Positions 13,354 to 45,909 of a stretch of 64,000 nucleotides of DNA are shown here, in pieces. The notes under the pieces are model-generated. The model was not told the origin of the DNA. It was given only the letters and a program-made list of their open reading frames with translations, and ran no database searches. Location: the NCBI GenBank assembly GCA_963702845.1, contig OY969763.1:2208001-2272000 (forward strand), read 5' to 3'. The stretch's first letter is position 1, and each line of letters starts with the position of its first letter. Position numbers and translations under genes: made by a program. The stretch is from an uncultured Verrucomicrobiae bacterium (GTDB lineage Bacteria; Verrucomicrobiota; Verrucomicrobiia; Limisphaerales; Palsa-1400).

Positions 13354-13403
13354 AATGGAGCCAGCTGTCGGGATTGAACCGACGACCGACGGTTTACAAA
13401 ACC
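13354..13403. repeat. att core (left), duplicated 3' part of tRNA-Thr
   Basis: aatggagccagctgtcgggattgaaccgacgaccgacggtttacaaaacc is identical to 45833-45882. Confidence 0.95.
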
Positions 13404-22407: not shown

Positions 22408-22408
22408 T

Positions 22409-23475: not shown

Positions 23476-23490
23476 CAGCCAACCAAAACC

Positions 23491-26422: not shown

Positions 26423-27010
26423 TCACGCCCTGACCAACTTCACCGTCGATTTACCAGGACTTCCCGCCAGAACGCGCCGCAACAAAGCCTCTACAACGGG
26501 CGTCAACACTCGACGCCGATCCAACTTGTCATAAACGTAAGTCGAACCTGACGACGGCGTCGTGGCCAACTTAATCGCAGCCGACTTCAAACCCTCTCCC
26601 AAAGGCGGCCCGGTGCGATCTGTAATCAGAAGCTCGCGCGCCAACTCACACGTCGCAGCGACGACACAAGGCGGAACAACATCGCTCGAAAGATACAATG
26701 GCGCGGCAGGTCCGAGCCCTATCACTAGCCCCGGCGCCCAAAAGACGCCGCTCGCTTCCCTGTCGGGCACCTGGACGCGCGGCCATTGCAGCGCTTGCGC
26801 ATTCGATTTGTGGAATCCCAGAAATTCACAGTGCGCGTCGATTAGCCGCGTTGCCATTACGAGCGCGATATCCTTGTTGCCGGCCGTCGCCCCCGTCCAC
26901 GCGGACGCGTATAGATGCGCGGCGTGGTAATCGTCGCCGTCCGCTGCAACGGCGTAACTGTTTGCATTCGGCAAACCCGTTCCATCCTCTTTGACAACGA
27001 CAAGCGCCAT
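26423..27010 (-). CDS. Phage head-tail adaptor / DnaT-like protein
   Basis: EDGTGLPNANSYA...AW...ALVMATRLID...QALQWPR...VVAATCELA; last gene of the head operon. Confidence 0.75.
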   Translation of the reverse strand: MALVVVKEDGTGLPNANSYAVAADGDDYHAAHLYASAWTGATAGNKDIALVMATRLIDAHCEFLGFHKSNAQALQWPRVQVPDREASGVFWAPGLVIGLGPAAPLYLSSDVVPPCVVAATCELARELLITDRTGPPLGEGLKSAAIKLATTPSSGSTYVYDKLDRRRVLTPVVEALLRRVLAGSPGKSTVKLVRA

Positions 27011-27327
27011 TAGGTCCTTTCCGGCAAAGTCACAATTTGCTTGAGCCCCAAATCTGAAATCGTCCGCTGCGGAAAACCAGCGTCGTTGTCGGCGTCATAT
27101 CCCTGCACGACAGCGAGCGGAAAAGCCGCTTGCGTGAGCGCAAGCTTCGTTGCGTTCTCATCCGTAAAAAGAGCCGAGCACCAATAATGCGTGGCAGGCG
27201 CTTGGCCGTTCGCCGACAGCCCAATAAAGAAAGTCCGAGCGCCGCCCGCCGCATCGAACTGATCAACAGCGACCGCATTCGCGCGTTCCCGATCTTCCGC
27301 AGCCACAATGATCAAAAAGCGGTTCAT
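27010..27327 (-). CDS. Hypothetical phage protein
   Basis: 105-aa ORF translationally coupled to both neighbours. Confidence 0.6.
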   Translation of the reverse strand: MNRFLIIVAAEDRERANAVAVDQFDAAGGARTFFIGLSANGQAPATHYWCSALFTDENATKLALTQAAFPLAVVQGYDADNDAGFPQRTISDLGLKQIVTLPERT

Positions 27328-28115
27328 AATTTCAAAAAGTTGTAACGCGATTGGAAATAGGCGCGCACACCGTCGGCCTCATCACCGGAAAGAAAGCGGT
27401 CGTAAATTAAAACCTCAGCGCAATCACCGTTACCCGGATAATTATTGGAACCTGATGCACCGAGCATTACTTGCTCAGGCGCAGCCGATGCAGCGGTCGG
27501 CTCAATTCCAGCCTGGACGCCGTTCATATAGATCGCATACGGGTGCACGCCTGGAACAATCCGAGCTTCGAAAAGGAAGAAATTAGTCGTGTCGACTGCC
27601 GACCCGGCCGTCCAACTCGTGAAATAACAAAGCATCCCATTGCCGTATGTTCCCATCGTCCAATCGAGCGAACCGGACGAAATGATTGCCGAGGAGGACC
27701 CACCGACAAGGACGGCCGGCCTCCAAATCACGAAAATCGAAAACGGCGTGCCGTCCGCAATGACCAGCGGCGTCTCCATCCCGTCATCAACCGTATCGAA
27801 ACGAAGCACCGGAAAAGTTTTTCCAGCAAACGTCACCTCCTGCAAAGTCGGCTGCATCGACGCACTGATTTGCGTCGCGTCATTGACGTTCCCGCTGTCG
27901 TCCTGCCAATTCGAAACCGAATCGCCGGGGCCTTCCCCCAAAGAACTCGCCTGCAGCCAGAGCTGCATATCCTCGGGAACAAAGCCGGGATCAGGCCCAA
28001 CATCCTGCGCACGCTTGCGCCGGCGCTTCTGTGCCCAAAGGGCCCACCAGCCATTTCGGCTAACGCTTCCGGGTTGCGGGAGTGGCGGAAAGATTTTGTA
28101 CGAACTTTGCTTCAT
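27324..28115 (-). CDS. Concanavalin A/LamG-like domain virion protein
   Basis: LWLQASSL...VSNWQDDSGNVNDATQ...LRFDTVDDGM...GDCAEVLIYDRFLS...RAYFQSRY; start uncertain (28115 or 28163). Confidence 0.72.
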   Translation of the reverse strand: MKQSSYKIFPPLPQPGSVSRNGWWALWAQKRRRKRAQDVGPDPGFVPEDMQLWLQASSLGEGPGDSVSNWQDDSGNVNDATQISASMQPTLQEVTFAGKTFPVLRFDTVDDGMETPLVIADGTPFSIFVIWRPAVLVGGSSSAIISSGSLDWTMGTYGNGMLCYFTSWTAGSAVDTTNFFLFEARIVPGVHPYAIYMNGVQAGIEPTAASAAPEQVMLGASGSNNYPGNGDCAEVLIYDRFLSGDEADGVRAYFQSRYNFLKL

Positions 28116-28269
28116 CGGCTGGCTTGGGAACACCGGGCGAACTCGGCTTCGGCGGCATGACATCAGGCGCTTTCGCCGAAACCGCTAATGGCCCGACCGG
28201 TTCGGCCTCAACCAAAGGTTTCCGTTTCCGCCGAATGATTGGATAAAGACCTTCCATAAAAGCGATCAT
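28060..28269 (-). CDS. Small Pro/Lys-rich hypothetical protein
   Basis: 69-aa ORF coupled to the upstream stop codon; could be a frameshifted N-terminus of the LamG gene. Confidence 0.4.
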   Translation of the reverse strand: MIAFMEGLYPIIRRKRKPLVEAEPVGPLAVSAKAPDVMPPKPSSPGVPKPADEAKFVQNLSATPATRKR

Positions 28270-28889
28270 TCACCGGCGAACACAGTCACGACGTCTGTCG
28301 CCGCCAAATCCGTAGAACCTGTATTCGCGAGGTCAACGCGATCACCCGTTAGAGTAGTTGTCCCACCCCATGCTTTCGACGCGCCTGCCGCCGTGCGGAC
28401 CTGCACCAAAGCAGCCAGTGGATTGAACGGAAACGCAAACCGCATCGCGGCCAGCGCGACCTCATTTGCATTTACGGCACGCGCCTGTAATTGCACACCC
28501 TTGTAAATGTCAGACCCGCCATACATGGCACCAGCGGCCCACGCATTATTTGCGCCCGCCAACGTCTCACTGCATGCAAGCGCACGTCCCGCGATACCAA
28601 TTCGCGTTACAATCAGAATCTCATTTACGCTGATTGCCTTCGCCGTAATCCCCTGCTGAGTTCTCGCGTTGATCGTCGCAACGAGCGCCGCACCCGCGAG
28701 CGTCGGCGTCAATCCACCCGAACAATCCACGAGAATGTTTCCCGCCGTGACAGCCGCGTTGTTATCAATCTCGTAAACCTCATTCCCGATCGTCAGCGTT
28801 TCCGCGTCAGCGACGTTCGACGCCAACCGCAGCACGTTCGAATATCGCCGCCCAACATGAGCGGCCTTGTCTAACGAAATCGTTTTCAT
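28266..28889 (-). CDS. Putative capsid decoration/cement protein
   Basis: Ala/Thr/Gly-rich beta-type protein directly after the major capsid gene; start MKTISLDK. Confidence 0.55.
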   Translation of the reverse strand: MKTISLDKAAHVGRRYSNVLRLASNVADAETLTIGNEVYEIDNNAAVTAGNILVDCSGGLTPTLAGAALVATINARTQQGITAKAISVNEILIVTRIGIAGRALACSETLAGANNAWAAGAMYGGSDIYKGVQLQARAVNANEVALAAMRFAFPFNPLAALVQVRTAAGASKAWGGTTTLTGDRVDLANTGSTDLAATDVVTVFAGE

Positions 28890-28894
28890 ACTTC

Positions 28895-29902
28895 TCAGTT
28901 GTTGTGGACGACTGCGACAATGCGCACGTTCTTCGCCTCGTAAACACGAACCCAATTCGATTGCGTTTCGATTTCTGTGTCAGTCGGATTCTTTCCCGCG
29001 ACCGAAGCGCTCGTGAACTTCACACCGCGAGGATGCAGAATGTAACGGCGGCGATTGATAAGATTCGAATCACCATCAAGCGCCGACCGCGAAAGCTCAA
29101 CGCCTTCCGTTCCGAAACCACCTTGCACAGGATTGTTCAGTTTCGCCGAGCCCTGGCAGAACGCGCCCGGACCGAACAAGTAAGTCGTATAGACATTCCC
29201 GTCAGTTGTCCCAACGCGAACAGGGCAACCGTCGTCGATGATGACGCGCCGACCTTGAAACACCCGAATCACCGGCTTGCCCTCGCTGTCCGGGATGAAA
29301 TCAATCAAATCCAATTTGCGAAGTGCCGCCTCAGTCGCAGAATGCATCGCAACCGCAACGAGTCGATCCCCACGATCACCCAATTTGGCACAAGCATCCA
29401 CGAACGTGGAACCAGTTAAGCGCGTCGCCGATCCCGACCCGGCAATCGACTCACTCGCGATCGAAAGAAGGTTGCTCGACATCGAAGCCGCGCCGAACAT
29501 TCCCTTCAGCGAAGAAATCAAAACACCCTGATTCGTGCGCGCCCAATACGTGCCGACAAGGTTAAGAATCGCATCCATCGGATCATCACCGGCCAACGCT
29601 TTCGCCAGTTGATTCACAGACCACGCTTGGCCGTCGTTATGAATGCGGGAAATATCCTGGTCCGCTCCAATCTTCTGCGTCGTCAGCGGAGCGGCATCAC
29701 TCAGCGGCTGCCGAGCGCCCGAGATGTCGTTCCAAAAAGGCAAATGGGCTTCCGTGCCGCCCTGCTCTGCGAGCGAATCAAACTCCGAATCCATTTGCAC
29801 GATGCCGGATTGATAGAACGCCGACAACGTAGCCGTGCGTTGAATCGCATACTTCTCAAACTCTGTCGGGACGATTACGTCCGCGATTTGTGTCTTTGCC
29901 AT
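28895..29902 (-). CDS. Major capsid protein (HK97 fold, SPP1-like coat family)
   Basis: MAKTQIADVIVP.F..Y......SAFYQSGIV, LPFWNDISG, LAGDDPMDAI, AMHSAT, GRRVIIDD, RRRYILHPRG, NWVRVYEAKN. Confidence 0.88.
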   Translation of the reverse strand: MAKTQIADVIVPTEFEKYAIQRTATLSAFYQSGIVQMDSEFDSLAEQGGTEAHLPFWNDISGARQPLSDAAPLTTQKIGADQDISRIHNDGQAWSVNQLAKALAGDDPMDAILNLVGTYWARTNQGVLISSLKGMFGAASMSSNLLSIASESIAGSGSATRLTGSTFVDACAKLGDRGDRLVAVAMHSATEAALRKLDLIDFIPDSEGKPVIRVFQGRRVIIDDGCPVRVGTTDGNVYTTYLFGPGAFCQGSAKLNNPVQGGFGTEGVELSRSALDGDSNLINRRRYILHPRGVKFTSASVAGKNPTDTEIETQSNWVRVYEAKNVRIVAVVHNN

Positions 29903-29970
29903 AAAATTTCAGCTTTCTATATTCGTTTGCTGCTTTGCGCGAAGCGCCGTGGCCGTAGGTGGCCGACACG

Positions 29971-30744
29971 CTAGTGTCCGGCAGCCGCTTGCATTTGCGC
30001 GGCCAACTGCGGATTACTCCGCAGCAACTTCATTTGTTCGGTGACGTTTCGCGTTTCTGTCTTCCACGGATTTTTCACTGAGCCATTCCCGACACCACCG
30101 GGATTGCCAGCAGCACCGCCGCCAGCGTTCGATTCAAAAAGATGCGGAGCCTCTGCCGCTTGCGTGTTTACCCATTCCTCCAAAGTCAACGCCGCGACGC
30201 CATCTTTGCCGACACGCACCGTTTGCCCGTCGCTTTCAAATGCAGTGGGAACACCGTTCACCAGCTTGAAAACATTTCGGGCGCGGGAAGTGATGTCCGG
30301 GATTGCCGTTGCCCGAAGACCTCGCTTGCTCGCTGAAGCGATAACCCCCTGGTCGATCTGAATCGCCATCAACCGCGAATTGAGCGTGTCCCGTTCAGAA
30401 GTCACCGCCGTGAGTTGTTTGTCCCACTCGCCTTTTAGATTTTTGACCCGGTCACCAACGATGCGGTCGATCTCATCCGGCTTGTGGCCCTGTGCCAACA
30501 GTTCGAGCCTCTGCTTTTCTTCGCCAAGCTTGCGAACCTCATCGGGATCGATGCCTTCGAATTTCTTTCGCTGCTCTTCCAATTGCTTCAGCAGCGTCAC
30601 ATTGGTTTGGCGAAACTCATCCAACTTGCTTTTGTCCGCGACACCGTCAGCGTCCAATTGCCAAGCGCCATCACGCTCCGCGTAATGAGCAAGGAGCTCC
30701 GCCGGAATCTCCTCGCGTTTCTGGTATTTGAATTTCAATGGCAT
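29971..30744 (-). CDS. Capsid scaffolding protein
   Basis: Coiled-coil protein, FEGIDPDEVRKL, APHLFESNAGGGA, KNPWK...NVTEQMKL; immediately upstream of the capsid gene. Confidence 0.8.
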   Translation of the reverse strand: MPLKFKYQKREEIPAELLAHYAERDGAWQLDADGVADKSKLDEFRQTNVTLLKQLEEQRKKFEGIDPDEVRKLGEEKQRLELLAQGHKPDEIDRIVGDRVKNLKGEWDKQLTAVTSERDTLNSRLMAIQIDQGVIASASKRGLRATAIPDITSRARNVFKLVNGVPTAFESDGQTVRVGKDGVAALTLEEWVNTQAAEAPHLFESNAGGGAAGNPGGVGNGSVKNPWKTETRNVTEQMKLLRSNPQLAAQMQAAAGH

Positions 30745-30966: not shown

Positions 30967-31971
30967 TTAGGGGCGAGGGCGAACCCGTAACGATGACCGC
31001 TGAATCAAGTGTCCGTGCTTGCACTTGTACCGGGGGACACGGTCTCCCGGCAGTAAAGTGCCTTGTGTAACGTCATCGTGATTGAAGTAACGAAACGGCA
31101 CCGGATAGCGGGCATGTGGGTTGTGAAACAGATACAATCCATCGAGCAGGCTCTCACGATAATTCGCCTTCGTCGAATTGCGAAGAATCGGATCAGAACC
31201 TTCGGCATTGAAATGAAGGCTCGAAAAGAAAGTCATTTCATCATCCTCTGGGTTGAGAGCATGTACCTTACTCATCGTCGCTGTATTGCTGAACATAACC
31301 GCGCTAATCTCGGGCATTGATGGCTTCGCAAAAATCCCAAGTTCAATTTCCACTCCCGGTGCTTTTTCGACACTGCCTTTGAAACAATGCTCACCGCTAG
31401 CGCCAACACGATCGTAACCGTACAACACTTGGCGAATCGCATGATCGTTTTGAGCCCAAAAATATGGTTGTTCGAAAGGGCCGATAGCTAAGACAAACGG
31501 CCGCCTAATCACATGCGCCAACGAAGAGTACGAATCTAAATATTTCTTTCGTTTGCCATGAATAGCATTCGAAAGACGGATTGTTGCGGTTTTGAGTACC
31601 TCCTCCGGGTCCGGCGGCGGGAGCGGCGGCTTCATGTGACGCTCCCACTCAGCACTCTCTCCCCTCGCATTGCTGGCGATCACCGCTTCAATGCAAAACT
31701 CGTTCAAAAAGTTATCAATGACAAAATCCGGGGAACCGAAATCGAAATTCACGCGAAACCCAAGCTCCTTGCAACACGCAAAAACATAAAGTTCCCAGAA
31801 GGAGGAATTAAATGTCGTCTGAAATTCGCGAACGAACTTTCCGTCACGATCTATAAATCCGTCAGCCCAACCCCTAATAACAACACGCTCACCCTCGGCA
31901 GGCGAATCAAGCAGCGCCCGAAAATTCGGATGCAACTCTGAATCTGGCACGACCGGCGCGAACAAGTCCAT
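30967..31971 (-). CDS. Accessory protein, often annotated 'glycosaminoglycan attachment' family, with PD-(D/E)XK-like motif
   Basis: MDLFAP...LHPNF...WADGFIDRDGKFVREFQTTFNSSFWELY, SPDFVI...IEAVIA, DGLYLFHNPHA. Confidence 0.65.
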   Translation of the reverse strand: MDLFAPVVPDSELHPNFRALLDSPAEGERVVIRGWADGFIDRDGKFVREFQTTFNSSFWELYVFACCKELGFRVNFDFGSPDFVIDNFLNEFCIEAVIASNARGESAEWERHMKPPLPPPDPEEVLKTATIRLSNAIHGKRKKYLDSYSSLAHVIRRPFVLAIGPFEQPYFWAQNDHAIRQVLYGYDRVGASGEHCFKGSVEKAPGVEIELGIFAKPSMPEISAVMFSNTATMSKVHALNPEDDEMTFFSSLHFNAEGSDPILRNSTKANYRESLLDGLYLFHNPHARYPVPFRYFNHDDVTQGTLLPGDRVPRYKCKHGHLIQRSSLRVRPRP

Positions 31972-32048
31972 AAGAGCCAATGCTACCTGAGGAAATTTCA
32001 AACGCAAAGGAGACGCCGGCGATCTTTCTCAATGCGATGAATTTCATC

Positions 32049-32111
32049 AATTCTCCCCACCACCGCTCTGCCCGCAACTTCGCATCCCCGAGCGCAGCCG
32101 ATGGCGGATTC
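32049..32111. repeat. Degenerate duplicate of the portal gene 3' end
   Basis: About 63 bp matching 32618-32679; both copies encode ...GQSGGGEN* on the minus strand. Confidence 0.8.
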
Positions 32112-32226
32112 CTTGAATTGAATTGACAACGTTCAGAAAACGAACCAATACTAAAGCCGTGCGCGGCAATTTATGAAGCCTCACCGAGGACTGCCCCTGA
32201 AATGAATTTGAGAAGAAAAGGAAATT

Positions 32227-32619
32227 ATGACTTTCGACGAAATAAAAGAAAAAATCGCAATAGCCCTGAATCATAAATGCAATGAGAACTGGGCTAATAT
32301 ATTGGATGATACTACGCCCGGCCATTATGGCTTTTGGGATCTGGAATTTGACATCGCGCTAAAGGACATCTGGGTCGAAATACAGAAAAGGACGTTTACT
32401 TTTCAAAATGCCAGCCTGTCGTTTACTGCTCAACTAGGCTCTTCAAATCCAGATGACGGAATAGAGATGCCCACCACAAGAACTGTCTCCGGAGCGGGAA
32501 AGTTCGAGTTTTCGGACAACGGGGAAATTGAGGTCCTCGAGTTCAAAATCAATGAGCAGATTGATTTCTTTGAAGAGGAGCATCGGCCTCTCAGACCTCG
32601 CTTCCGAATTACAGCCTAA
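32227..32619 (+). CDS. Hypothetical moron gene (AT-rich, opposite strand to the head operon)
   Basis: 130-aa ORF with AAGGA ribosome-binding site, between the duplicated portal ends. Confidence 0.7.
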   Translation: MTFDEIKEKIAIALNHKCNENWANILDDTTPGHYGFWDLEFDIALKDIWVEIQKRTFTFQNASLSFTAQLGSSNPDDGIEMPTTRTVSGAGKFEFSDNGEIEVLEFKINEQIDFFEEEHRPLRPRFRITA

Positions 32620-34262
32620 TTCTCCCCACCACCACTCTGCCCCCAACTCGCACCCTTTAGCGCAGCCGTCGGTGGATTCGCTTTAATCAAAGCCATCTCC
32701 TCGGCAACACTGCGGCCAGGAGGAAGCACCTCGCCTCGTTCCATCTGGTGCAAAACCGTTTCCAAACTGATCGCTGACGACTGCCACGCCGTCACCAGCG
32801 CCTGAATCTCGCGGCCAGTCAAACGCACGATGTCAAAATCCCGATTCAACTCGATCAAAATATCCCCACCCGAAACCTCATCCGGATGCTCCTCAGTCGA
32901 GTGCCACCAATAAACCCATCGCAACGCCTGATTCAATGACTTCGACACCGCCACAGAAATTCCCGCAATCACACTGCTATCCGCTGACTGCCGAAGCTGG
33001 ATTGCCTCCGCGCTTTCCGAAGCCCGTTTCTGCGATTCCAACAATCGCGCTCCCAGCACTGCCAGCAATCGCTCCACCCGATCCAGCGCCCGCTCAAACG
33101 TCTGCAACCCATCGCCCTTAAATTCCAGGAACCCAGCCGTCGCGCCCGGCGTCTCCGTCACCCACGCCGTGTTAGAACCCATCCGCAGCGGATCATCCTT
33201 GGCAAAACCAGAAACCCACGCCGTCGGCAGCGCCGTGAAATGCATCCCGTGTTTGTAATCCGTCGTCATCCGGTAATGGTCCAGATTCGCCCCGACAATG
33301 TCCGTGATCGGCGACCGTTCCACCGTCGACTTCGACAAACTCGGCCCGTGGAAAATGAAAGGAATATTCGGCAGCGGCTTGCCGCGACGCAACGGAACCC
33401 TCGTTTCCAAAAGCGTCATACTCTTTGAATCAGTGCTGACATTATTCACCGCAGAAACAGCGGGATAAGTTCCCACCGTAGCAGAGGGTGCAGCCGAGCC
33501 CGGACTGATGCCGCTCCCAAGATCGCTCCCCACAGCGCCGTCCACATCAGCGCGCCGCACTCCATCATTCGACTTTTTAGCGCGACCCCAAACCTCAACC
33601 ACATAATGCCAACCAACATGCTTGCCTTTCTGCGCTGGGGCCGAACCTTGAGCCGCTGGCGCGTCCTGAACCAACCGCAACACCCGCAACCGCTCCACTT
33701 GCGCAGGTGCAAACTCATCACCGCCACCGCTTGTTTGATTGCCGTCCGAAAAAACTTCCCGAAGCACAACCAGCGTCAATTGCATCCGCCCGTTGATCCG
33801 TTGCTCACGCCAATTCAAAATATCTTCCGCCCGATAAAACGTGAAATAAGCGCGGTTCTCAGGCGCATCGCACCAGTCAATCAACGTGCCGCAACGCCCG
33901 AGCACCGTGACTTCCGTTGTCACCTCGCGTGCGTAACCGGACAATTCCTTGCCGAGCAAATCAGCGTCGTTAACAAATTCCCGCAGCACATTTCCCAAGA
34001 CACTGCCGGGCTTCGGCAACTTCAGCACCGGCTCGCGGCGAAAGATCATTCCCAAATAACCCAACACCGTGCGTGCGGTCGCATTGTAAAAAAATCCTCG
34101 TTCCACGTACCAGCGATATTCCAGATCATTCATCCCCTCCAATCGAGGAATGTAACGAATCCCGGAACGCTTCATGGCACGGTCTCCATCCATCACATCG
34201 CGCAACGTCCGCCACCAATCTTGGTGCAATTCGTATTCAGGATGTAGAGAGCTGACCGGCAC
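32616..34262 (-). CDS. Phage portal protein (DUF4055 family)
   Basis: HPEY...W...RDVMDG...YIPR...FYNATART, YRAEDILNW, IPFIF, NLDHYR...DYKHGMHFTALPT, LGARLL. Confidence 0.88.
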   Translation of the reverse strand: MPVSSLHPEYELHQDWWRTLRDVMDGDRAMKRSGIRYIPRLEGMNDLEYRWYVERGFFYNATARTVLGYLGMIFRREPVLKLPKPGSVLGNVLREFVNDADLLGKELSGYAREVTTEVTVLGRCGTLIDWCDAPENRAYFTFYRAEDILNWREQRINGRMQLTLVVLREVFSDGNQTSGGGDEFAPAQVERLRVLRLVQDAPAAQGSAPAQKGKHVGWHYVVEVWGRAKKSNDGVRRADVDGAVGSDLGSGISPGSAAPSATVGTYPAVSAVNNVSTDSKSMTLLETRVPLRRGKPLPNIPFIFHGPSLSKSTVERSPITDIVGANLDHYRMTTDYKHGMHFTALPTAWVSGFAKDDPLRMGSNTAWVTETPGATAGFLEFKGDGLQTFERALDRVERLLAVLGARLLESQKRASESAEAIQLRQSADSSVIAGISVAVSKSLNQALRWVYWWHSTEEHPDEVSGGDILIELNRDFDIVRLTGREIQALVTAWQSSAISLETVLHQMERGEVLPPGRSVAEEMALIKANPPTAALKGASWGQSGGGEN

Positions 34263-34442: not shown

Positions 34443-34462
34443 GTTGTCGCAGATTAATTGTT
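34443..34462 (+). other. attI-like recombination site, copy 1
   Basis: GTTGTCGCAGATTAATTGTT running into R' core GTTCGGC (34460-34466); 18/20 identical to the inverted copy at 39604-39623. Confidence 0.6.
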
Positions 34463-34478
34463 CGGCGTCGTGAAACAT

Positions 34479-34952
34479 ATGCCATCTTCCGAGCGCACAT
34501 TCCAAGAGGCAATGTCACCAGAGGTGCTAGCGGGCATCTCTGGCCGCGAATTGCTGATTCAGCACCTCGGCCACTGGCCCACCTTCCACGACTTTGAAGT
34601 GCTCTCTCTGATTCTAGAGCGAGCTGTTGTTTCAGCTGCCGCTTGTGACCTGAAAGCTACTTTCTTTGTGTTCGACCTCACCAAATCGCCGCACGACCCA
34701 GAGCGGAAGCAGGGCACGGCTGAGTTTCTGTTCGAGGACATCAACGCGCTGCACATCGACGGCTTCAACCATCAGAACCCAATCATGGGCTTATCGATTG
34801 TTCGTGCCGAGTCATCTGGAGAGGAGACGCGCTTTCGTGTGCAGTGGGGTGGCACCTGCATGCAGCACGAGGTGTCTTTCACCTGCTCGCGCGTTGCTGT
34901 TCTTCGAGTCGTCGACCTGAACCCATTTCGCAAGGCATTTCCGAGCCTATGA
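34479..34952 (+). CDS. Immunity protein Imm50-like, in an integron-type cassette
   Basis: GHWPTFHDFEV...FLFEDI..L.IDGFNHQNPIMGLSI; bounded by GTTCGGC and GCCGAAC. Confidence 0.75.
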   Translation: MPSSERTFQEAMSPEVLAGISGRELLIQHLGHWPTFHDFEVLSLILERAVVSAAACDLKATFFVFDLTKSPHDPERKQGTAEFLFEDINALHIDGFNHQNPIMGLSIVRAESSGEETRFRVQWGGTCMQHEVSFTCSRVAVLRVVDLNPFRKAFPSL

Positions 34953-34956
34953 GATC

Positions 34957-35001
34957 GCCGAACCACTCACTTCAGCCGGTGGCTGAGTTCGAGCGTTGGC
35001 C
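34957..35001 (+). other. Short (internally deleted) attC site
   Basis: GCCGAAC-CACTCACTTCAGCC-GGT-GGCTGAGTTCGAGC-GTTGGCC: R'', TCAGCC/GGCTGA inverted boxes, R'. Confidence 0.7.
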
Positions 35002-35010
35002 ATCAAATCC

Positions 35011-35508
35011 ATGACCGCTCGTCTCTCCATTAATTCGTGGTTTCTCCGCGCTATTCTTGCCTTTTCCGTCGCTCTGGGGTGTCACGCTCAGGACCCCGAC
35101 AATCCATTGGTGGGGCGGTGGCTGCTTCAGCGCAAAGGTTCGCTAGATGCCAGGTCTTACAAGGTTGAATGGCAGTTTACGAAGGATCAGGTAATAGTGC
35201 GGATTGTGAAGGACCGGGCAAAACCAGAGGAAGTGTCCCGGAACAATTACACGATCGACACGACCAAAAATCCCAAGTGGATCACAGTTACCTTGGTCGG
35301 TAAAGTGACCGAAGTGCGACAGGGTATTTTTCGCATAGTTGGAGACGAGCTTCACCTAAAACAGACCGTTGGCGGAGGCGCACGTCCCGTAGATTTCGTG
35401 AAAGACAATTATTCGGTTTTGAAGCGGCAGCCCCAAGCGGATGGCCAACCAAGCGGTCCAGCGAACCGTTCGCGTCCGCTCTCGGTGATTCAAACGCTGG
35501 TTAAATAA
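35011..35508 (+). CDS. TIGR03067-like secreted protein, in an integron-type cassette
   Basis: Signal peptide, LVGRW, YTIDTTKNPKWI, QGIFRIVGDELHL, RPVDF; bounded by GTTGGCC (34995) and GGCCAAC (35443). Confidence 0.72.
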   Translation: MTARLSINSWFLRAILAFSVALGCHAQDPDNPLVGRWLLQRKGSLDARSYKVEWQFTKDQVIVRIVKDRAKPEEVSRNNYTIDTTKNPKWITVTLVGKVTEVRQGIFRIVGDELHLKQTVGGGARPVDFVKDNYSVLKRQPQADGQPSGPANRSRPLSVIQTLVK

Positions 35509-35535
35509 CTGAACCGATAATCCCGCCGGAACAAA

Positions 35536-35952
35536 TCATTTGATTCGTGTCATCGAGGTTGCCTGACCATCCTTTGACAACGTCAGCTCGTTGGCGCTCG
35601 CTTTGACAATCTTGTAATGATCGGTAGTCCCAACAGGAATCTTCGCGCTAACTTTCTCCCCCGAATCATTCGTGGTGGTGACAGAAGCACCGGTGATGTT
35701 TGTAACAGTGGACACTAACATCGCGTTACTGACGCTCCACTTCCCATCATAATACATGACCTCGTCAGGAGCTTTTCGATTCTTGCAAGTAGTGCGAAAC
35801 TTTCCATCGGCTGAAATTGATGTCTTAACGATAAGTTGGCCACAATCAACATCGGCCCAAGAGCCAACGACCTGTTGCCGAAGTTTCGCATCCTGCGCAT
35901 GGCACGCGGCCACCATAATCCATAAGAACACAGTTGTGGTAATCAGTTTCAT
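35536..35952 (-). CDS. Secreted lipocalin-like hypothetical protein
   Basis: Signal peptide, VVGSW, ADGKF, GKWSV, ELTL. Confidence 0.65.
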   Translation of the reverse strand: MKLITTTVFLWIMVAACHAQDAKLRQQVVGSWADVDCGQLIVKTSISADGKFRTTCKNRKAPDEVMYYDGKWSVSNAMLVSTVTNITGASVTTTNDSGEKVSAKIPVGTTDHYKIVKASANELTLSKDGQATSMTRIK

Positions 35953-36093
35953 AGTCGACGCATTCTAGTGGGGGCAACAGAGCAATAATGACACTGCCAG
36001 AAGTGCTGACAAGGCGTAATTCCAACCACGGCTTCGGGTTTCCAGTCCGCAGCCTCCATAGCATTCTGACGTCCGCGTCCGGCATCGGACCAC

Positions 36094-36441
36094 TCATCGC
36101 TTGCTGGAAATACTTTCAAGAGCGATTGCAATTAGAACCACCACGATACACACCGCGAAGCCGCCCCAAATCAACTGCAACGCTCGCTTTCCACGGCGCT
36201 TCGTATCCTCCGACTTCGAACGGAAAGCAACCATCGCCAAGATATGCGCAACGACAAAAGACGGGCCTCCGATGAAGAAGGGAATGAATAACGTCTCGGG
36301 CTCGTAGCTTCGTCCGAGCAAATGTAACAACGGCCACAGAAGACCAAAGACAACAAAGACCGAGGCACAGCCTATGGAACAACCTCCCGAGCGACTGCTG
36401 GGTGCAGGTGTTGGCGTGTTCTCATTTTCCATGGGAGTCAA
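36094..36441 (-). CDS. Hypothetical membrane protein (3 predicted TM segments)
   Basis: Three hydrophobic segments in a 115-aa ORF. Confidence 0.6.
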   Translation of the reverse strand: MTPMENENTPTPAPSSRSGGCSIGCASVFVVFGLLWPLLHLLGRSYEPETLFIPFFIGGPSFVVAHILAMVAFRSKSEDTKRRGKRALQLIWGGFAVCIVVVLIAIALESISSKR

Positions 36442-37971
36442 ATCAGCTTGAAACTTTAATACGCGCCACTGTTCGCATAATTCTGACGCACGAACAAGAA
36501 TCTTCGCGCATGCTCAACGTCCGCGTCCGTCAGCGGCTCCGTCGCGGTGCTATCGCAACGCTCCTACGCCGCAGCCGTCCGCTCTCGGTAATTCCAACGC
36601 TGGTTACATAAGAAGTCAGTTGGTGCAATCCACAATCACGAAGCTTCGCCGGCTTGAACGTATGGGTCGCTGGGACCGAATAGGCCAGTGGCGCTGCCAC
36701 CAAAGACAACATCGGCTCGCTTCGCTCAACAACATGGACGGCCTATGCGCCGTGTTGATTTCCCCTCCGCACGCCGGCGGAACCCGCCCATTACCCCCTC
36801 GCGCCGGCCCGCGCATCGCCCGCCGCCTGCGCACGCCCCCCACCAACCCGGCGCCCCCTCCCCCGCTATTAACGTCGGTCGTTCCGCTAATCGCGGTCGA
36901 CGTTGGTTCAGCGGGGGCGGGGGCAGTGCTCGGCGCGGTACAGTCCAGTGTTCGCCCCCTCCCCGGCCATACTGAACGCGCGCCACGCGACCCCGTCAGA
37001 AAGAACCCCCTCGCTCCCCAGCTCGCCCCAAAAACAAAGACAACCCGAAAGACACCCACCACCCCATCAACCCCCGCTGTGCAAGCGTGACACCATCGAC
37101 TCGATTGTCGCTGACGCTCGATCGTGCCGCTGGCACCGTCGTTGTCGTCACCCTTGCGCAGCCCCAACAGAGCCAGACTCCGGCAGTTGCGCCGCTGCAC
37201 TACGCTGACGTTGCACGAGCGCCAATCGAACTGCTCCGCTTGGCTTGCTCGCTTCACTACCGCTCCGTTTCACGTCTCACCCTCCGGAGACTGGCCAATC
37301 CCCAAGGCCAGCACATCACTGCAACTAGCTCCAGAAACGCTTCGCTGACTTCCGCCGCGTCGCAGTCATGTGCAGGCCTCCCAAATTTAGTCTGACCTAT
37401 GCACGAAACATTCCGGTGCCGGGCCTAAACGCTTTCCACGCCACCATCAAAGCGACGGCCTTGCATCCTCACATTTCGCGCACAAGTCAGAGGGTGGCTG
37501 CATGCTAATGCCGCGACCACCGCGAACCCATACGATGCGACCCCGCGAGAAGTTGTTAAGCTCCGTTCCAGCATGTCATGAAGGATGCTTCCGATCTACA
37601 GACACAAGTGACGTTATATTACGTGCCGCCCCAACACCGGTATCCGCTTCGCAGAACCTCCGGTGTCGGGTCCCCGCCGTTTCACTGAGTCGATCGGAGG
37701 CTCCCACTCAACGGCCCGGTTCACTAAGATATAACATCGTCTTGTGTCCATAGACCTGGCCCGTTTGGCACGCTCACTGACAATGGCTGCTCCTTCCCCA
37801 CCGATCAGCCGCAGTGCCCGCGCCAACCAAGCCTTGCATCCTTCACGCCACGCCCTCACTCCGCAGCTGAAGCAGTTTGGCGGGGCCGCCAGTGAGTTCT
37901 CCGCATCAGGTAATGCACCAACACTCATTCGGGTATCTTCACCCTGCGTTTTTGCTAAAATCTAAACCGAA

Positions 37972-38145
37972 GTGAGCGGACACTTTCTCTCCCAGCAAAA
38001 CGCAGACTTAAAGCGCTTAATCGCAGCAAACAAAACTGCGCTTAAGCAGTTACGCAAGTCTATCGGTGACATTGATCGTCGCCTCAAAGCTAAACTTCCT
38101 TCACAGCAAACACCCAAACAGCAAGCGCCCAGCGCCCGCAAATAG
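37972..38145 (+). CDS. Small basic coiled-coil protein (57 aa, below the ORF-track cut-off)
   Basis: VSGHFLSQQNADLKRLIAANKTALKQLRKSIGDIDRRLKAK...; preceded by extended -10 TGCTAAAAT (37953-37961). Confidence 0.45.
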   Translation: MSGHFLSQQNADLKRLIAANKTALKQLRKSIGDIDRRLKAKLPSQQTPKQQAPSARK

Positions 38146-38415
38146 TAAGCCCGTCCTCTGTTTGATTCGCTCAGTCGGCGCTCGCCATTCCCCTGAGCCC
38201 TAATCGAGTCCAGAAAAAGTGAGTCCAGACACCGTCTGGTTCCTTTTTACCCTCTGCTAGCCACTCGACCATCGCCCTCACCGGGCCGCTTTCCGTCAGG
38301 GGACAACGTGGCGCCTTCTGAAGACTACTTCCACTGTCCGCCATGCCGACGCGGCCTCTTTCGGATGAAGGGCGACAGTCCGAGAGCGCACAGCAGAGCA
38401 GTCAAAAAAAAGAAC

Positions 38416-38697
38416 ATGAAAACCAATACAAAACAAAATTCGGAATCGAGGCTCATGAACCGGATCGCACAGTCGAGCAGTGATGCATTTAGGGCGGTGT
38501 TTTTCCGGGGGCCGGAATCCAGCAGAAACAAAGACGGTGACGAAATCCCCGTCTGGAATGTTTTCCTCGGCGACGAGCACGGCGAACCAGTGCGCACCGT
38601 TTACGGAATCTACGACTTCAAACGCGCCGAGTCCCTCGCGCAGGTCATGTCTTCAGACCGCAAACTTGAACTCATCCACGAAGCCCAGCCCGCCTAA
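38416..38697 (+). CDS. Hypothetical protein downstream of a long hairpin
   Basis: 93-aa ORF starting MKTNTKQ directly after the stem-loop. Confidence 0.6.
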   Translation: MKTNTKQNSESRLMNRIAQSSSDAFRAVFFRGPESSRNKDGDEIPVWNVFLGDEHGEPVRTVYGIYDFKRAESLAQVMSSDRKLELIHEAQPA

Positions 38698-38748
38698 TTC
38701 CCGCTCGGCTCGCGTCCGTCCAGGGCGCGAGCCATTCGCCAACCTCGT

Positions 38749-39009
38749 ATGAAAAATCCTTTGTTCGACAATACGCCTCGCTGGCGTCAGTGCATTTTGC
38801 AGCTGACACGCACCGTCACGATCGAGACCCGTCGCCGCCTCATGTGCATCCCGCACCGCCAAGACGCCAAAGAAGAAGCCAACCACCTCCGCCGTCAATA
38901 CGGCGACGCGCTCGTCGCAGTGAACATTTCCAAAAACGGCAAAGGCCCGACAGCCACATACACGTGCTCCTACACACTGCGCGAAACCCGCACCGAGGAA
39001 TTATTCTGA
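38749..39009 (+). CDS. Hypothetical protein
   Basis: 86-aa ORF, co-oriented, preceded by a GC-rich hairpin. Confidence 0.55.
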   Translation: MKNPLFDNTPRWRQCILQLTRTVTIETRRRLMCIPHRQDAKEEANHLRRQYGDALVAVNISKNGKGPTATYTCSYTLRETRTEELF

Positions 39010-39076
39010 TCTACCTTGTCGCGCCATAGCCTTCGGCGACGGCGGAACGCCAGAGATTTGCCACCGCTGCACTCCG

Positions 39077-39110
39077 CCTTTAACGACGCAATCTCAGCGC
39101 ATGGTTAGGC
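39077..39110 (-). other. Collapsed attC site
   Basis: Minus strand GCCTAAC-CATGC-GCTGAGATTGCGTC-GTTAAAG just after the stop codon of 39118..39576. Confidence 0.55.
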
Positions 39111-39117
39111 GGCACGG

Positions 39118-39576
39118 TCATGTCTGTCGCTGATAACCTAAAGCTCTCAAAAAGTCGTCTGAACCCCGGAGCAAAAGCGACAGCCGGTGAGTTTGCCCCT
39201 GCTGATCGCGGTAATCCAACAACAGCGAACGTCCTGAATCGCTCGGCTGAACACTAATGATGGAAGCTCTCGGAATGCGATGCTCCATGTCAGATAGCGA
39301 TCCGATGACGTTAAACGGAAACCCGCTGCGAACCCAAACCTCATCGTCGGTGACAGTGACCTGCAAACAGCCAGCCGGTCCACCAAGCCGAGTGAATGTC
39401 GTTTTATGCGAGCTCCCCGACGCGCGCACCTCGTGAAAGCGAATGCGGTCTGATGAAACTTGCGGGAAAACTATGCCGTGTCGCTTGTGGTGCCGCCAAC
39501 GCATCGCAAAGATCCAGAGAACCAGCAGCATCGCACCCAGATTTAACCAGATGATGTATTTTTGAAAATGGTCCAT
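39118..39576 (-). CDS. Hypothetical membrane-anchored protein in an integron-type cassette
   Basis: N-terminal TM helix; preceded by GTTAGGC (39602-39596) and followed by the complementary GCCTAAC (39110-39104). Confidence 0.7.
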   Translation of the reverse strand: MDHFQKYIIWLNLGAMLLVLWIFAMRWRHHKRHGIVFPQVSSDRIRFHEVRASGSSHKTTFTRLGGPAGCLQVTVTDDEVWVRSGFPFNVIGSLSDMEHRIPRASIISVQPSDSGRSLLLDYRDQQGQTHRLSLLLRGSDDFLRALGYQRQT

Positions 39577-39603
39577 CGCCTAAGCGCCTAATATCGCCTA
39601 ACA

Positions 39604-39623
39604 AACAATTAATACGCGACAAC
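39604..39623 (-). other. attI-like recombination site, copy 2
   Basis: Minus strand GTTGTCGCGTATTAATTGTT followed by TGTTAGGC; 35 bp after the terL stop. Confidence 0.6.
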
Positions 39624-39657
39624 CACTAGATTCCGCAATTGATCCTTCATCCTTTCT

Positions 39658-41040
39658 TCAAAGCCCCCTCAACTTCCGATGCACGATAACGCGCGGCTTA
39701 GTCGCAATCAGATAACGCAACGCATCCGCCGCATCGTCGCCGCCGACGCCATCTTCGTCTGCGTCGACCTTCAGCACGTCCTCAGGCCGGTTCGGATCAT
39801 GTTGCAGCGCCGGCAACGTCTCAACTAACCGCCCGCACTTTTTGTGAATGAAAAGCGTCGGACGGATACCGGCTTCGGCGTCACCGAAGCGTGTCAGAAT
39901 TTCCGCCCACCCATTGATGCGATCCGTGTTCGCGCAGCGCAAAGTAATCCCGTGCTTCGCATACTGCGCGGCAATCGTTGTGCCGTCGCTCTGGCGCGAA
40001 AACACATCCGCACCAGCCACGCACCGTTTCAAACTGCTTGGTTGCAGGCCATGCCTGCCGAGCATCGCCTTGATTGCCGCCGCGTGACGTTGCGGCAACC
40101 ACATCCGCTCCGCGTGTTCATCCACGACGAACACGTTCCCGTCACAATCCGTGCAGCCGAGCAACACTACCGTGTAATGCGCGAAGCCATAGTCCAGCGC
40201 ACAAAACCATTCACGCGCCCGCTTGTCGTCGAAGTCCTCGATGACATGCACTTCCCTCCGCAGCGTCGTGAAGAACTGCCCCGCCGCGATGTCCCAATCC
40301 CCATCCAGCCACGCGCGACGCTGCCAACCGCTCAACCCCTGCAGTACCCGGATATATTCCGGGTTGTTCCAACGGTTGTCAGTCACACGCGCCGCCACAA
40401 ACCTCGTCTCCGTCTCGGCCTTGTTCAAAAAAGGCAGGACGAACCTCGACCGATACCACCCGTGACCGACGCCGCCCGGATTCGTCGTCGAATAGATACG
40501 TGGTCGCCAATTCGGTTTGCTTGTCCGACAACACGTCGTGATGTCCTGGTATTTCCGCGCCGTCAACGTCGTCGCCTCCTCGATGCCTATGACGTCGTAT
40601 TCGAGGCCGAGATACGCGTCGATGTCCTTCTCGTTCTGAAAATGCCCGGCAATGATCCGCGAGCCGTTATTGAATGTGAGGATGCCCCGAAACGCCGAGA
40701 ACTCGTGACCGAGCTTCGTGAATAGCTTTCGCCGCAGATCCTCGAAGTGCTCAAGGTTCGCCTTGCCGACCTTGCGCAGCAGTAAACATTTCAATCCTGG
40801 CACACGCTGACAATCATCGACGCCCATCTGGCCAAGCAACCAATGTGACTTGCCACCGCCGCGCGCGCCGCCGTAGCCGATTGCTGTCGGCCCGTCGGTA
40901 GTGTCGCAGAGCCTCGCCGCCGCGCTGGCCGCAAGCTGACGCTCCTGCAATACCACGTCCGCGCGCTCAAACCGTTGCATCTGGTCCTTCGGACAACCAG
41001 CGCGCCGCCCGATCAGAAAATACCTTTCCCAAGGCGTCAT
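39658..41040 (-). CDS. terL: Terminase large subunit
   Basis: YGGARGGGKS Walker A, IGIEEAT Walker B, TTNPGGVGHGW, ALDYGF and DDAADALRY nuclease motifs. Confidence 0.93.
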   Translation of the reverse strand: MTPWERYFLIGRRAGCPKDQMQRFERADVVLQERQLAASAAARLCDTTDGPTAIGYGGARGGGKSHWLLGQMGVDDCQRVPGLKCLLLRKVGKANLEHFEDLRRKLFTKLGHEFSAFRGILTFNNGSRIIAGHFQNEKDIDAYLGLEYDVIGIEEATTLTARKYQDITTCCRTSKPNWRPRIYSTTNPGGVGHGWYRSRFVLPFLNKAETETRFVAARVTDNRWNNPEYIRVLQGLSGWQRRAWLDGDWDIAAGQFFTTLRREVHVIEDFDDKRAREWFCALDYGFAHYTVVLLGCTDCDGNVFVVDEHAERMWLPQRHAAAIKAMLGRHGLQPSSLKRCVAGADVFSRQSDGTTIAAQYAKHGITLRCANTDRINGWAEILTRFGDAEAGIRPTLFIHKKCGRLVETLPALQHDPNRPEDVLKVDADEDGVGGDDAADALRYLIATKPRVIVHRKLRGL

Positions 41041-41615
41041 TGCGTTTTCTCCGGTAGCACGGGCGTTGCTTCGATATCCACCACCTCGCCGGGCAACGGC
41101 TCGCCATAAATCTTCTCCAGCGCGACCGTGACCTCGACGCGCACCATTGGCAAATCGTCACCGTTATCGCGCTCGCCGTTCGTGCCAAGCCCTGTCGCCA
41201 GCCGCCCGAGCTTGCTCGCGATCTCCAGCATTCGCGCGATGTCCGAGAGATTCGCATAAACCTTTTCGCGCGCCATGTAGGCATCGAGACCCCGTTGCGC
41301 CGCAGCAATCGCACGCTCATGCATTGCCCATTCCGTCTCGCGCAACTTCTGCTCGCGCCCCTCCCACTCCGCCGCCTTGCTTCGCGCCGTCGCCTCGATC
41401 GCCTCGCGCTCCACAATCGCCAGATGCGCCGAGTGCGCCTGCACTCGCGCCGACCAATCAAACCGCCGCGACCACTTTTCCATTTGCCCCTTACTCTTGC
41501 CTAACTTTTGCCCTACCAATTCCAGCGACCGCTCTGGGCCCATTCCGAGATACAATCCAAACGCCGCAAACGCTTTAGCTGACTCTTTCGGCTGTTGCTC
41601 AAAAATTAACGCCAT
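41037..41615 (-). CDS. Terminase small subunit (putative)
   Basis: ESAKAFAAF..Y..MGPERSL HTH...WSRRFDW.AR; coupled to terL. Confidence 0.75.
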   Translation of the reverse strand: MALIFEQQPKESAKAFAAFGLYLGMGPERSLELVGQKLGKSKGQMEKWSRRFDWSARVQAHSAHLAIVEREAIEATARSKAAEWEGREQKLRETEWAMHERAIAAAQRGLDAYMAREKVYANLSDIARMLEIASKLGRLATGLGTNGERDNGDDLPMVRVEVTVALEKIYGEPLPGEVVDIEATPVLPEKTQ

Positions 41616-45709: not shown

Positions 45710-45834
45710 AAATCGTTCACTTTTCGGCAAATACTTTCCCTTTCTCGCATTTTGCTTCACCGACCGACAAAAACCAAAACAGCAAGCAAACCCTTTATTT
45801 GCAGTGGTTTTAACGATTTCCACGTAGAAAAGAA

Positions 45835-45909
45835 TGGAGCCAGCTGTCGGGATTGAACCGACGACCGACGGTTTACAAAACCGTTGCTCTACCACTGAGC
45901 TAAGCTGGC
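45835..45909 (-). tRNA. tRNA-Thr(UGU), 75 nt with encoded CCA; integration target
   Basis: GCCAGCTTAGCTCAGTGGTAGAGCAACGGTTTTGTAAACCGTCGGTCGTCGGTTCAATCCCGACAGCTGGCTCCA folds as a cloverleaf with anticodon TGT. Confidence 0.97.

What the first reader, a model, noticed from the sequence alone, without database searches (positions are those of the whole stretch)
34443..39623. Integron-style cassette capture region inside a phage packaging module, with no integron integrase
Seen: terL and portal, usually adjacent, are about 5.4 kb apart. Three genes in the gap have integron cassette architecture, where the 7-bp core before the gene is the exact reverse complement of the core after it. These are GTTCGGC(34460)-Imm50-GCCGAAC(34957), GTTGGCC(34995)-TIGR03067-GGCCAAC(35443), and on the minus strand GTTAGGC(39602)-gene-GCCTAAC(39110). 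Established: this R'/R'' complementarity is the signature of IntI-mobilised cassettes. Inference: the element loads cargo from a host chromosomal integron using IntI supplied in trans, so a phage or satellite acts as a cassette vector. This is my best candidate for an undescribed system.
Basis: partly seen in the sequence, partly recalled or inferred. Interest (0 to 1): 0.9.

Follow-up and report, generated by a model that had tools for sequence, protein, structure and literature searches.

The report
Integron cassettes in tail-less phage island
A head-only, phage-like island carries real integron gene cassettes at copies of the integron docking site, between its DNA-packaging genes, in a bacterium where no integron enzyme was found, so it looks like a cassette carrier loaded in the past rather than a working new system.

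Summary
All six cores are where stated, and the three genes are integron cassettes. It has 47 copies in the genome, 15 in the terL-portal gaps of five sister elements. In two sister pairs the cargo switches at that core. The inference needs correcting. No intI was found in the 6.03-Mb single-contig genome. Only one attC passes a model, and it is shrunk to 45 nt; the other two are a half site and a collapsed site. About 2.5 kb of the gap is conserved backbone. The gap is family-wide (31 of 32 relatives, at least 2.4 kb), but only 1 of those 32 holds a clear cassette. Best reading: a 32.5-kb tail-less capsid island whose cargo hotspot acquired orphan attI sites, was loaded by IntI in the past, and is now decaying. 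An attI-headed, integrase-less array among prophage structural genes is published (Shewanella M16-3). This scan already reported the same system on a sister element of this genome.

The parts
13354..13403 (.). left attachment repeat of the element (50 bp, copy of the tRNA-Thr 3' end)
   Evidence: 100% identical to 45833-45882
13490..14824 (+). phage-type tyrosine integrase of the element, not IntI
   Evidence: PF00589, phrog_1; no TIGR02249 match
14889..26334 (+). Hma-like defence block (HmaA, HmaB, HmaC) with DUF4365 and two RhuM-family ORFs
   Evidence: PADLOC HmaA 624 bits, HmaB 394, HmaC 306; Pfam
26423..30744 (-). head module: head-tail adaptor Ad1, virion structural protein, major capsid protein, scaffold
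   Evidence: phrog_477, phrog_10356, phrog_247, phrog_206
30967..32615 (.). second cargo slot (portal to scaffold): PD-T7-5-like gene and a small ORF, with a duplicated portal 3' end; no cassette sites
   Evidence: PADLOC PD-T7-5 346 bits; 83-bp portal-end repeat 32039-32118 / 32606-32687
32616..34262 (-). portal
   Evidence: phrog_145, PF13264; 77 synonymous against 11 non-synonymous codon differences to the sister element over 530 codons
34408..34462 (+). attI-like site 1 (portal side); crossover G at 34460
   Evidence: best of 47 genome copies (67 bits); aligns with family attI sites; homology to the sister element ends at the core
34460..34994 (+). cassette 1: Imm50-like gene (ATG 34479 to 34952)
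   Evidence: GTTCGGC/GCCGAAC pair; weak PF15594 match; 14 homologues in 300 other genomes, 2 of them integron-associated
34957..35001 (+). attC of cassette 1, 45 nt: R and L boxes intact with one unpaired base, central stem lost
   Evidence: 29.3 bits with the foreign-built model; bottom strand folds into a hairpin, -8.8 kcal/mol
34995..35508 (+). cassette 2: TIGR03067-like gene (ATG 35011 to 35508); attC left arm only (35443-35466), right arm replaced by a backbone repeat (35467-35509)
   Evidence: left-arm score 20.0 bits; no full-model hit; repeat matches 36576-36611 and portal-side backbone of sister elements
35536..36441 (-). two further cargo ORFs (138 and 115 aa) without cassette boundaries
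   Evidence: no core pair, no attC, no family match over cut-off
36451..36498 (-). degenerate attI-like site heading those two ORFs
   Evidence: nhmmer 24.5 bits, E 1e-4; core matrix only 10.9 bits
36515..39014 (.). conserved element backbone inside the gap: non-coding blocks and two small ORFs (38416-38697, 38749-39009); not cassette DNA
   Evidence: blocks shared with all four sister elements and, in part, with 29 of 32 gaps from other genomes
38240..38415 (+). conserved structured leader (candidate regulatory RNA) before the ORF at 38416
   Evidence: block found in 24 of 32 foreign gaps; folding z -3.4; 11 of 24 pairs with compensatory changes; no Rfam match
39078..39110 (-). collapsed attC of cassette 3 (33 nt: inverse core, spacer, one L box, spacer, core)
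   Evidence: first 16 nt identical to full attC sites of a chromosomal array in G000 and of a complete integron in G229; two other such collapsed sites in the genome; no hairpin; 12.6 bits, E 0.5
39111..39602 (-). cassette 3: 152-aa hypothetical gene (39576 to 39118)
   Evidence: GTTAGGC/GCCTAAC pair; no Pfam family; 2 homologues in 300 other genomes, neither with an attC
39604..39623 (-). 3' part of an attI-like site (terL side); its core G is at 39606, 4 bp before the cassette core
   Evidence: 31.7 bits with the core matrix; the 5' half of the repeat is missing
39658..41615 (-). terL and terS
   Evidence: phrog_2, phrog_6299, PF03237
41830..45648 (.). P4-type primase/helicase, excisionase-like and repressor-like genes
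   Evidence: TIGR01613, phrog_1840, phrog_2328
45833..45909 (-). right attachment repeat and tRNA-Thr(TGT)

Best explanation
The 32.5-kb element is a tRNA-integrated, head-only (cf-PICI-like) island of a family spread through Verrucomicrobiota. Shown: the family keeps a multi-kb terL-portal interval made of a conserved regulatory backbone with a cargo slot on each side. Shown: in this genome those slots hold orphan copies of an attI-derived site, followed by genes with cassette boundaries. Inferred: IntI from an integron since lost from this lineage, or met in another host, inserted cassettes at the element's own portal-side attI by attI x attC recombination, TIGR03067 first and Imm50 last. 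Inferred: with no IntI present the arrays are frozen, and their attC sites are being erased by slippage and by recombination with neighbouring repeats. The element could carry the cassettes onward in its own capsid, but packaging and transfer are not shown.
For: A 20-nt matrix built only from 22 G000 repeat copies picks the attI at the intI start as the top site on 3 of 5 family integron contigs (20-24.5 bits) and a degenerate one on a fourth (15 bits); at most 14.9 bits in 30 integron loci of other families; genome background at 20 bits is 3e-6 per position. The consensus of 37 copies continues into GTTAGGC, the usual cassette core, then loses conservation. Window and sister E4830 are 90% identical for 297 bp up to the core and unrelated from +5; E1717 and E4284 are 95% identical for 299 bp up to +4 and carry different first genes. 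15 of 47 attI-like sites and 8 of 48 attC sites lie in five gaps that make up 0.7% of the genome (binomial p 3e-21 and 2e-9; sites are not independent). The array order attI-Imm50-attC-TIGR03067 has matched cores, as IntI insertion leaves them. Two elements from other assemblies carry arrays with different heads: L090 in the gap (attC 77.5 bits) and L142 beyond the portal (3 attC; its head is 75% identical over 61 nt to the attI of integron L042, ending at the GTT). IntI is common in the lineage: 5 of 31 family and 121 of 301 order genomes. Decay: 45-nt, half and collapsed attC sites; mutated cores in both E4830 and E1717 portal-side sites.
Against: Breakpoints at the core are also what homologous exchange through a 47-copy repeat that ends at the core would leave. 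One attI-plus-cassette unit is duplicated as a block with flanks (178998 / 4310181, 96% over 747 bp), and a 146-bp spacer is shared between chromosomal arrays and three sister elements (31 hits), so non-IntI transfer does occur here. Only 11 of 47 attI-like sites have a model-scored attC within 1.5 kb, and 9 of 47 first genes have an inverse core within one mismatch. No integron with this exact attI subtype beside an intI was found: the pattern hit only G000 and one site in G015 among 31 family genomes, only G000 among 401 order genomes, and nothing in viral contigs. The terL-side site is partial and 4 bp out of register with its cassette. No recombination was measured.
Confidence: 0.5

Rival explanations
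1. Block transfer without IntI acting on the element. IntI built attI-headed arrays in the chromosome; whole attI-plus-cassette blocks then entered the element's hotspot and were swapped between sisters by homologous or microhomology recombination through the attI repeat on one side and backbone or terL-end repeats on the other.
For: Block duplication 178998 / 4310181. Shared 146-bp spacer in chromosomal arrays and elements. terL 3' stubs lie within 6 kb of 8 of the 27 attI-like sites outside the five elements. The TIGR03067 attC right arm is replaced by a backbone repeat. 40 of 48 attC sites and 32 of 47 attI-like sites lie outside the gaps.
Against: In 24 of the 26 pairwise rows with extended flanks, homology stops between -16 and +6 of the core; the other 2 rows are one duplicated block. 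None of the window's cargo genes has a chromosomal donor copy today.
Confidence: 0.3
2. One reading: a working, selected platform. The element keeps functional attI sites and reloads cassettes whenever it enters a host that expresses IntI, then carries them on in its capsid.
For: The window's portal-side site is the best-scoring copy and has an intact core. Head genes are under purifying selection and both attachment repeats are intact. All five G000 elements have an attI-like site in the gap. Independent cases L090 and L142, and same-type sites beside head modules in metagenome loci L068 and L069.
Against: No intI in G000, nor found in the two incomplete congeners (73% and 67% complete). No intI in 126 portal loci. 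Cores are mutated in sisters, 2 of 3 window attC sites are broken, and 31 of 32 foreign gaps lack a clear cassette.
Confidence: 0.15
3. The repeat is the target of another recombinase (XerCD or the element integrase) or a promoter/operator for cargo, and resembles attI only by descent.
For: The repeat has inverted arms that resemble a XerC arm (motif recalled, not from a call). Upstream positions are better conserved than the core: 22 of 37 strong copies keep a GTT near the expected place.
Against: The match to the true attI at intI starts, the GTTAGGC consensus after the core, and downstream attC sites all point to IntI. The dif-type pattern was not found in the genome. The sigma-70 scan found no promoter at the repeat.
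Confidence: 0.04
4. Chance matches of 7-mers.
For: About 2% of ORFs show such a pair by chance; both family names are below curated cut-offs.
Against: Model-scored attC, attC left arms and attI homology coincide at the same three genes.
Confidence: 0.01

Closest known systems
attI-headed CALIN in Shewanella prophage M16-3 (Qi et al. 2023, PMC9892861; read parts 1-3 of 7 of the text, including section 3.3, plus passages)
   Same: Integrase-less cassette array with its own attI, flanked by phage tail, scaffolding and terminase genes; the paper also shows that phage-borne attC sites recombine with attI1.
   Different: M16-3 is a tailed, cryptic prophage that also carries a complete integron. Here the element is head-only with intact attachment sites, no intI was found in the genome, three attI-like sites sit in one gap, and sister elements show cargo exchange at the core.
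CALIN and SALIN elements (Cury et al., 10.1101/030866, passages; Loot et al., 10.1101/2022.09.11.507474, passages; review PMC11389934, passages)
   Same: attC-bounded genes without intI; half of CALINs lie in genomes lacking intI; mobilisation in trans is already proposed; loss of attC by slippage is proposed.
   Different: Those elements are defined by attC alone. Here the distinctive part is a 47-copy attI-derived head concentrated in the packaging interval of mobile islands. By the two-attC rule the window scores only as a single-attC element.
Unusual cassettes of mobile integrons: truncated-attC and delta-attI types (PMC12901181, read abstract and introduction; Partridge et al. 2009 known only as cited there)
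   Same: Cassettes in which only the inverse core of attC survives, as for cassettes 2 and 3; attI copies that spread inside arrays.
   Different: In the window no gene ends in an attI; the attI copies head the arrays. Tandem attI-gene-attI units occur in sister E4284 but with extra spacer DNA.
Capsid-forming PICI satellites (PMC10085698, passages)
   Same: Integrase, regulator, primase, terS, terL, portal, capsid and head-tail adaptor without tail or holin; defence cargo.
   Different: No HNH nuclease, head protease or separate head-tail connector detected; a scaffold-type capsid; a multi-kb conserved interval between terL and portal; Verrucomicrobiota host; 32.5 kb with cargo.

Membership tests
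Complete integron | intI gene next to the array | tested here: not met
   No TIGR02249 match over cut-off in G000; best hits are XerC/XerD-like
Complete integron | attI site with GTT crossover heading the first cassette | tested here: met
   By homology to the attI of family integrons; activity not tested
Complete integron | Pc promoter driving the cassettes | tested here: inconclusive
   Sigma-70 consensus scan found 1 site in 34200-39750 against 2.5 expected, none at the repeat; other promoter types are not covered
Integron gene cassette | core before the gene complementary to inverse core at its end | tested here: met
   3 of 3 claimed genes; for TIGR03067 the inverse core is inside the ORF
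Integron gene cassette | foldable attC with R and L boxes and an unpaired base | tested here: met
   Met for cassette 1 only; cassettes 2 and 3 fail
Integron gene cassette | attC length 57-141 bp (range as stated in PMC12901181) | tested here: not met
   45 nt and 33 nt
Integron gene cassette | IntI-catalysed excision or insertion | not testable with these tools
   Needs a recombination assay
CALIN | at least two attC sites in a cluster | tested here: not met
   One model hit in the window; met in sister E1717 with 5. IntegronFinder itself was not run.
CALIN | no intI nearby | tested here: met
cf-PICI | integrase, regulator, primase, terS, terL, portal, capsid, head-tail adaptor | tested here: met
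cf-PICI | HNH nuclease, head protease, head-tail connector | tested here: inconclusive
   Not detected among 24 element ORFs scanned; SatelliteFinder profiles not available
cf-PICI | no tail or holin genes | tested here: met
   None in the element; no tape-measure or sheath family in G000; no tail annotation among 78 downstream ORFs of 10 relatives, most of them unannotated
cf-PICI | transfer with tails taken from a helper phage | not testable with these tools
   Needs induction and particle analysis
delta-attI-type cassette | gene ends in an attI fragment in place of attC | tested here: not met
   No window gene is followed by an attI copy on its strand

The most novel reading that the evidence does not exclude
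A family of head-only satellites in Verrucomicrobiota has repeatedly co-opted orphan attI sites, from at least two and probably more integron lineages, as docking ports beside its packaging genes. It reloads cassettes whenever it passes through a host with IntI and so serves as the between-cell vehicle for chromosomal integron cassettes, a hitcher of integrons that is itself a hitcher of phages.
Probability: 0.2. Interest if true: 0.75.

Novelty: new variant of a known kind. Interest (0 to 1): 0.45.

Why it matters
How cassettes of chromosomal integrons move between cells is an open question, and integrase-less arrays are usually read as debris. Here sister islands in one genome share a docking site at a fixed place and differ from the crossover onward. 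That makes a direct test possible: does an orphan attI on a satellite accept cassettes from IntI in trans? If it does, phage satellites become a transport route for cassettes in a phylum where 40% of the sampled order genomes encode IntI. If it does not, the locus still documents how cassettes are fixed: loss of intI, then stepwise erasure of attC.

Tried and rejected
Host intI: profile search, two IntI proteins by tblastn and intI DNA by blastn found none in G000. Donor array: no second copy of any of the five cargo genes. Xer/dif reading: a recalled dif-type pattern gave no full match in the genome, although the element sits at the GC-skew maximum. Family-wide cassette loading: rejected. The model was run on 68 of 126 portal loci (the longer ones) and hit only L090 and L142. 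The left-arm matrix gave 4 hits in 32 gaps against 3.6 expected at the genome rate, only L090 convincing. The 32 gaps exclude four duplicate loci (L080, L110, L111, L118), one with a partial terL (L134) and all loci without terL in reach; the 10-kb flank hides gaps above about 8.5 kb. Cargo as habitual cassettes: 12 of 14 Imm50 homologues and both homologues of cassette 3 show no cassette context at the gene. Defence function of the gap cargo: no PADLOC match beyond one weak hit at E 0.005. Sequencing runs: none was listed, so excision, replication and expression were not examined. Rfam: nothing in the gap. The genome attC count of 48 is a lower bound (150 of 1,788 candidates scored). The attI-like model was built from G000 copies, so its score for the window site is circular; the non-circular test is. 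Literature searches; none listed a paper on attI-bearing satellites or on these Verrucomicrobiota elements, but the library lacks most subscription papers. Supplementary Tables S1-S2 of PMC9892861, which give the contexts of 17 phage CALINs, were not read and could hold a terminase-portal case.

Full report
OBSERVATION. The six 7-bp cores are at the stated places and each pair is an exact reverse complement. Portal (32616-34262) and terL (39658-41040) are on the minus strand, 5,395 bp apart. The names Imm50 and TIGR03067 are weak matches below their curated cut-offs. GGCCAAC lies inside the TIGR03067 frame, which stops at 35508. Core complementarity alone is modest evidence: 123 of 5,232 genome ORFs show it, against 90-102 in shuffled pairings. 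I therefore built an attC covariance model from 26 sites taken from complete integrons of other genomes. In the window it finds one site, 34957-35001 (29.3 bits, E 2e-5), which keeps both boxes but is only 45 nt. The TIGR03067 cassette keeps a true left arm (top window score with a foreign-built matrix), but its right arm is replaced by a backbone repeat. The minus-strand cassette has a 33-nt collapsed site whose first 16 nt are identical to full attC sites of a chromosomal array in this genome and of a complete integron in G229. All three genes are cassettes by origin; one still has a foldable attC.

THE ELEMENT. A perfect 50-bp repeat (13354-13403 and 45833-45882, the end of tRNA-Thr) bounds 32.5 kb. 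It encodes a phage-type integrase, an Hma-like defence block, head-tail adaptor, capsid, scaffold, a PD-T7-5-like gene, portal, terL, terS, a P4-type primase and repressor-like genes. No tail or holin was detected in it, and no tape-measure or sheath family in the genome. The genome holds four more elements with full head modules. The closest, near 4.83 Mb, has a portal 97% identical, with 77 synonymous and 11 non-synonymous codon differences over 530 codons. Titled relatives are mostly Verrucomicrobiota assemblies, from which I infer the host phylum.

Directly before the first core lies a ~55-bp repeat with 47 copies in the genome. Five of 31 genomes of the family have an intI match. In three of them the sequence between the intI start and the cassette core resembles the 3' part of the repeat, a fourth has a degenerate form, and the fifth has an assembly gap there. 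A matrix made only from 22 G000 copies ranks that attI first on the G005, G012 and G018 contigs (20-24.5 bits) and on G025 (15 bits); on G023 it picks a copy about 2.5 kb away; it reaches at most 14.9 bits in 30 integron loci of other families. The consensus of 37 strong copies runs on into GTTAGGC and then decays. The window has a full copy at 34408-34462, a 3' part at 39604-39623 and a degenerate copy at 36451-36498. Extra attI copies are a family habit: the family-type pattern hits 15 of 30 other genomes, up to five times each. The G000 subtype was found only in G000, once in G015, and in metagenome loci L068 and L069.

DOES CARGO CHANGE AT THE CORE? Yes, in the two pairs that can be tested. 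Window and E4830 are 90% identical from -297 to +5 of the portal-side site and then carry unrelated genes; E1717 and E4284 are 95% identical from -299 to +4 and also differ after it. Fifteen of 47 attI-like sites and 8 of 48 attC sites fall in the five gaps, 0.7% of the genome. This is what loading at an attI predicts. It is also what exchange through a repeat that ends at the core would leave, and such exchange does occur here: one unit is duplicated with its cassette and flanks, and a 146-bp spacer is shared by chromosomal arrays and three sister elements.

There is no host integron to supply IntI. Profile, protein and DNA searches find only XerC/XerD-like and phage-type integrases in G000, a single 6.03-Mb contig whose cumulative GC skew returns to about zero (completeness by markers 89.8%). 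None of the five cargo genes has another copy in the genome. The gap is not made by cassettes. In 32 distinct relatives with terL and portal on one locus it measures 0.5-7.5 kb (31 of 32 at least 2.4 kb, median 4.65 kb), and 29 of 32 share backbone blocks with 36.7-39.0 kb of the window. Only L090 has a clear cassette array there. L142 has a three-attC array beyond the portal whose head matches the attI of another integron lineage. No intI was found in any of 126 portal loci. Cassette loading is thus recurrent but rare in the family and intense in this genome.

MECHANISM. Shown: hotspot, backbone, attI homology, cassette boundaries, exchange at the core, absence of intI, attC decay. Inferred: an attI copy entered the slot; IntI from a lost or transient integron inserted TIGR03067 and then Imm50; after IntI was gone, slippage and repeat-mediated recombination trimmed the attC sites. 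I put in-place loading in the past at 0.5, block transfer without IntI on the element at 0.3, and a platform still in use across hosts at 0.15. How attI first multiplied is unexplained; attI-bearing cassettes, shown mobile for class 1 integrons (PMC12901181, abstract and introduction), are one route. Packaging, transfer and expression were not examined.

COMPARISON. It works like a CALIN with its own attI on a mobile element. Qi et al. describe such an array among tail, scaffold and terminase genes of Shewanella prophage M16-3. Mobilisation of CALINs in trans, their abundance in genomes without intI, and attC loss by slippage are in print (passages). It is not a complete integron, and with one model-scored attC the window itself misses the CALIN rule. 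The carrier has the cf-PICI layout (passages of PMC10085698) but three core parts were not detected, so membership is open. What I did not find in seven searches is a head-only island family with multiplied orphan attI sites at fixed slots. Earlier notes of this scan describe the same repeat and a cassette array in the 1.72-Mb sister element; I re-tested the attI identity and the missing intI myself.

VERDICT. Real and well supported as anatomy, a new variant of a known kind, most likely frozen. Interest 0.45. The bold reading, satellites as reloadable cassette vectors, stays at 0.2 and is testable with one recombination assay.

Noticed in passing
Candidate regulatory RNA of the element family; a likeness to the c4/CI immunity RNAs of P1 and P4 is recalled, not tested.
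   Followed up: partly
window 37574-37750: Second conserved non-coding block shared with about ten foreign gaps; not folded or modelled.
   Followed up: no
window 30967-32007 and 32039-32118: PD-T7-5-like defence gene in the portal-scaffold slot behind a duplicated portal 3' end; the sister element has cassettes and a similar portal-end duplication in the same slot.
   Followed up: partly
window 14889-26334: Hma-like three-gene defence system between integrase and head module, with DUF4365 and a RhuM-family gene in two ORFs.
   Followed up: no
G000:C1:4836256-4836328: A second repeated array head, unlike the main one, with 7 other matches in the genome; it ends in a GTTAGGC core and heads cassettes in the sister's portal-scaffold slot. 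Probably another orphan attI type.
   Followed up: partly
window 12000-13400: The cumulative GC-skew maximum of the genome (2,220,183) lies about 1 kb left of the element's left repeat, so the element sits at the likely replication terminus; no dif-type match was found.
   Followed up: partly
window 39575-39602: Three near-copies of TTAGGC in tandem between the core and the start of cassette 3, and a 4-bp offset between the attI core and the cassette core; looks like slippage.
   Followed up: no
window 34408-34462 (-): Read on the minus strand, family attI sites hold a promoter-like pair facing the intI start; the same position in the window faces the portal gene. Seen by eye; the consensus scan did not call it.
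   Followed up: no
G000 genome-wide: Many terL 3' stubs and two lone near-complete terL genes (near 2.81 and 6.00 Mb) outside the five elements; several stubs lie next to attI-like sites.
   Followed up: partly
L014:976-1002 (G023): An attI copy preceded by only the first ~80 bp of intI, 2.5 kb from the intact intI, whose own attI falls in an assembly gap; either a duplicated integron head or a scaffolding artefact.
   Followed up: no
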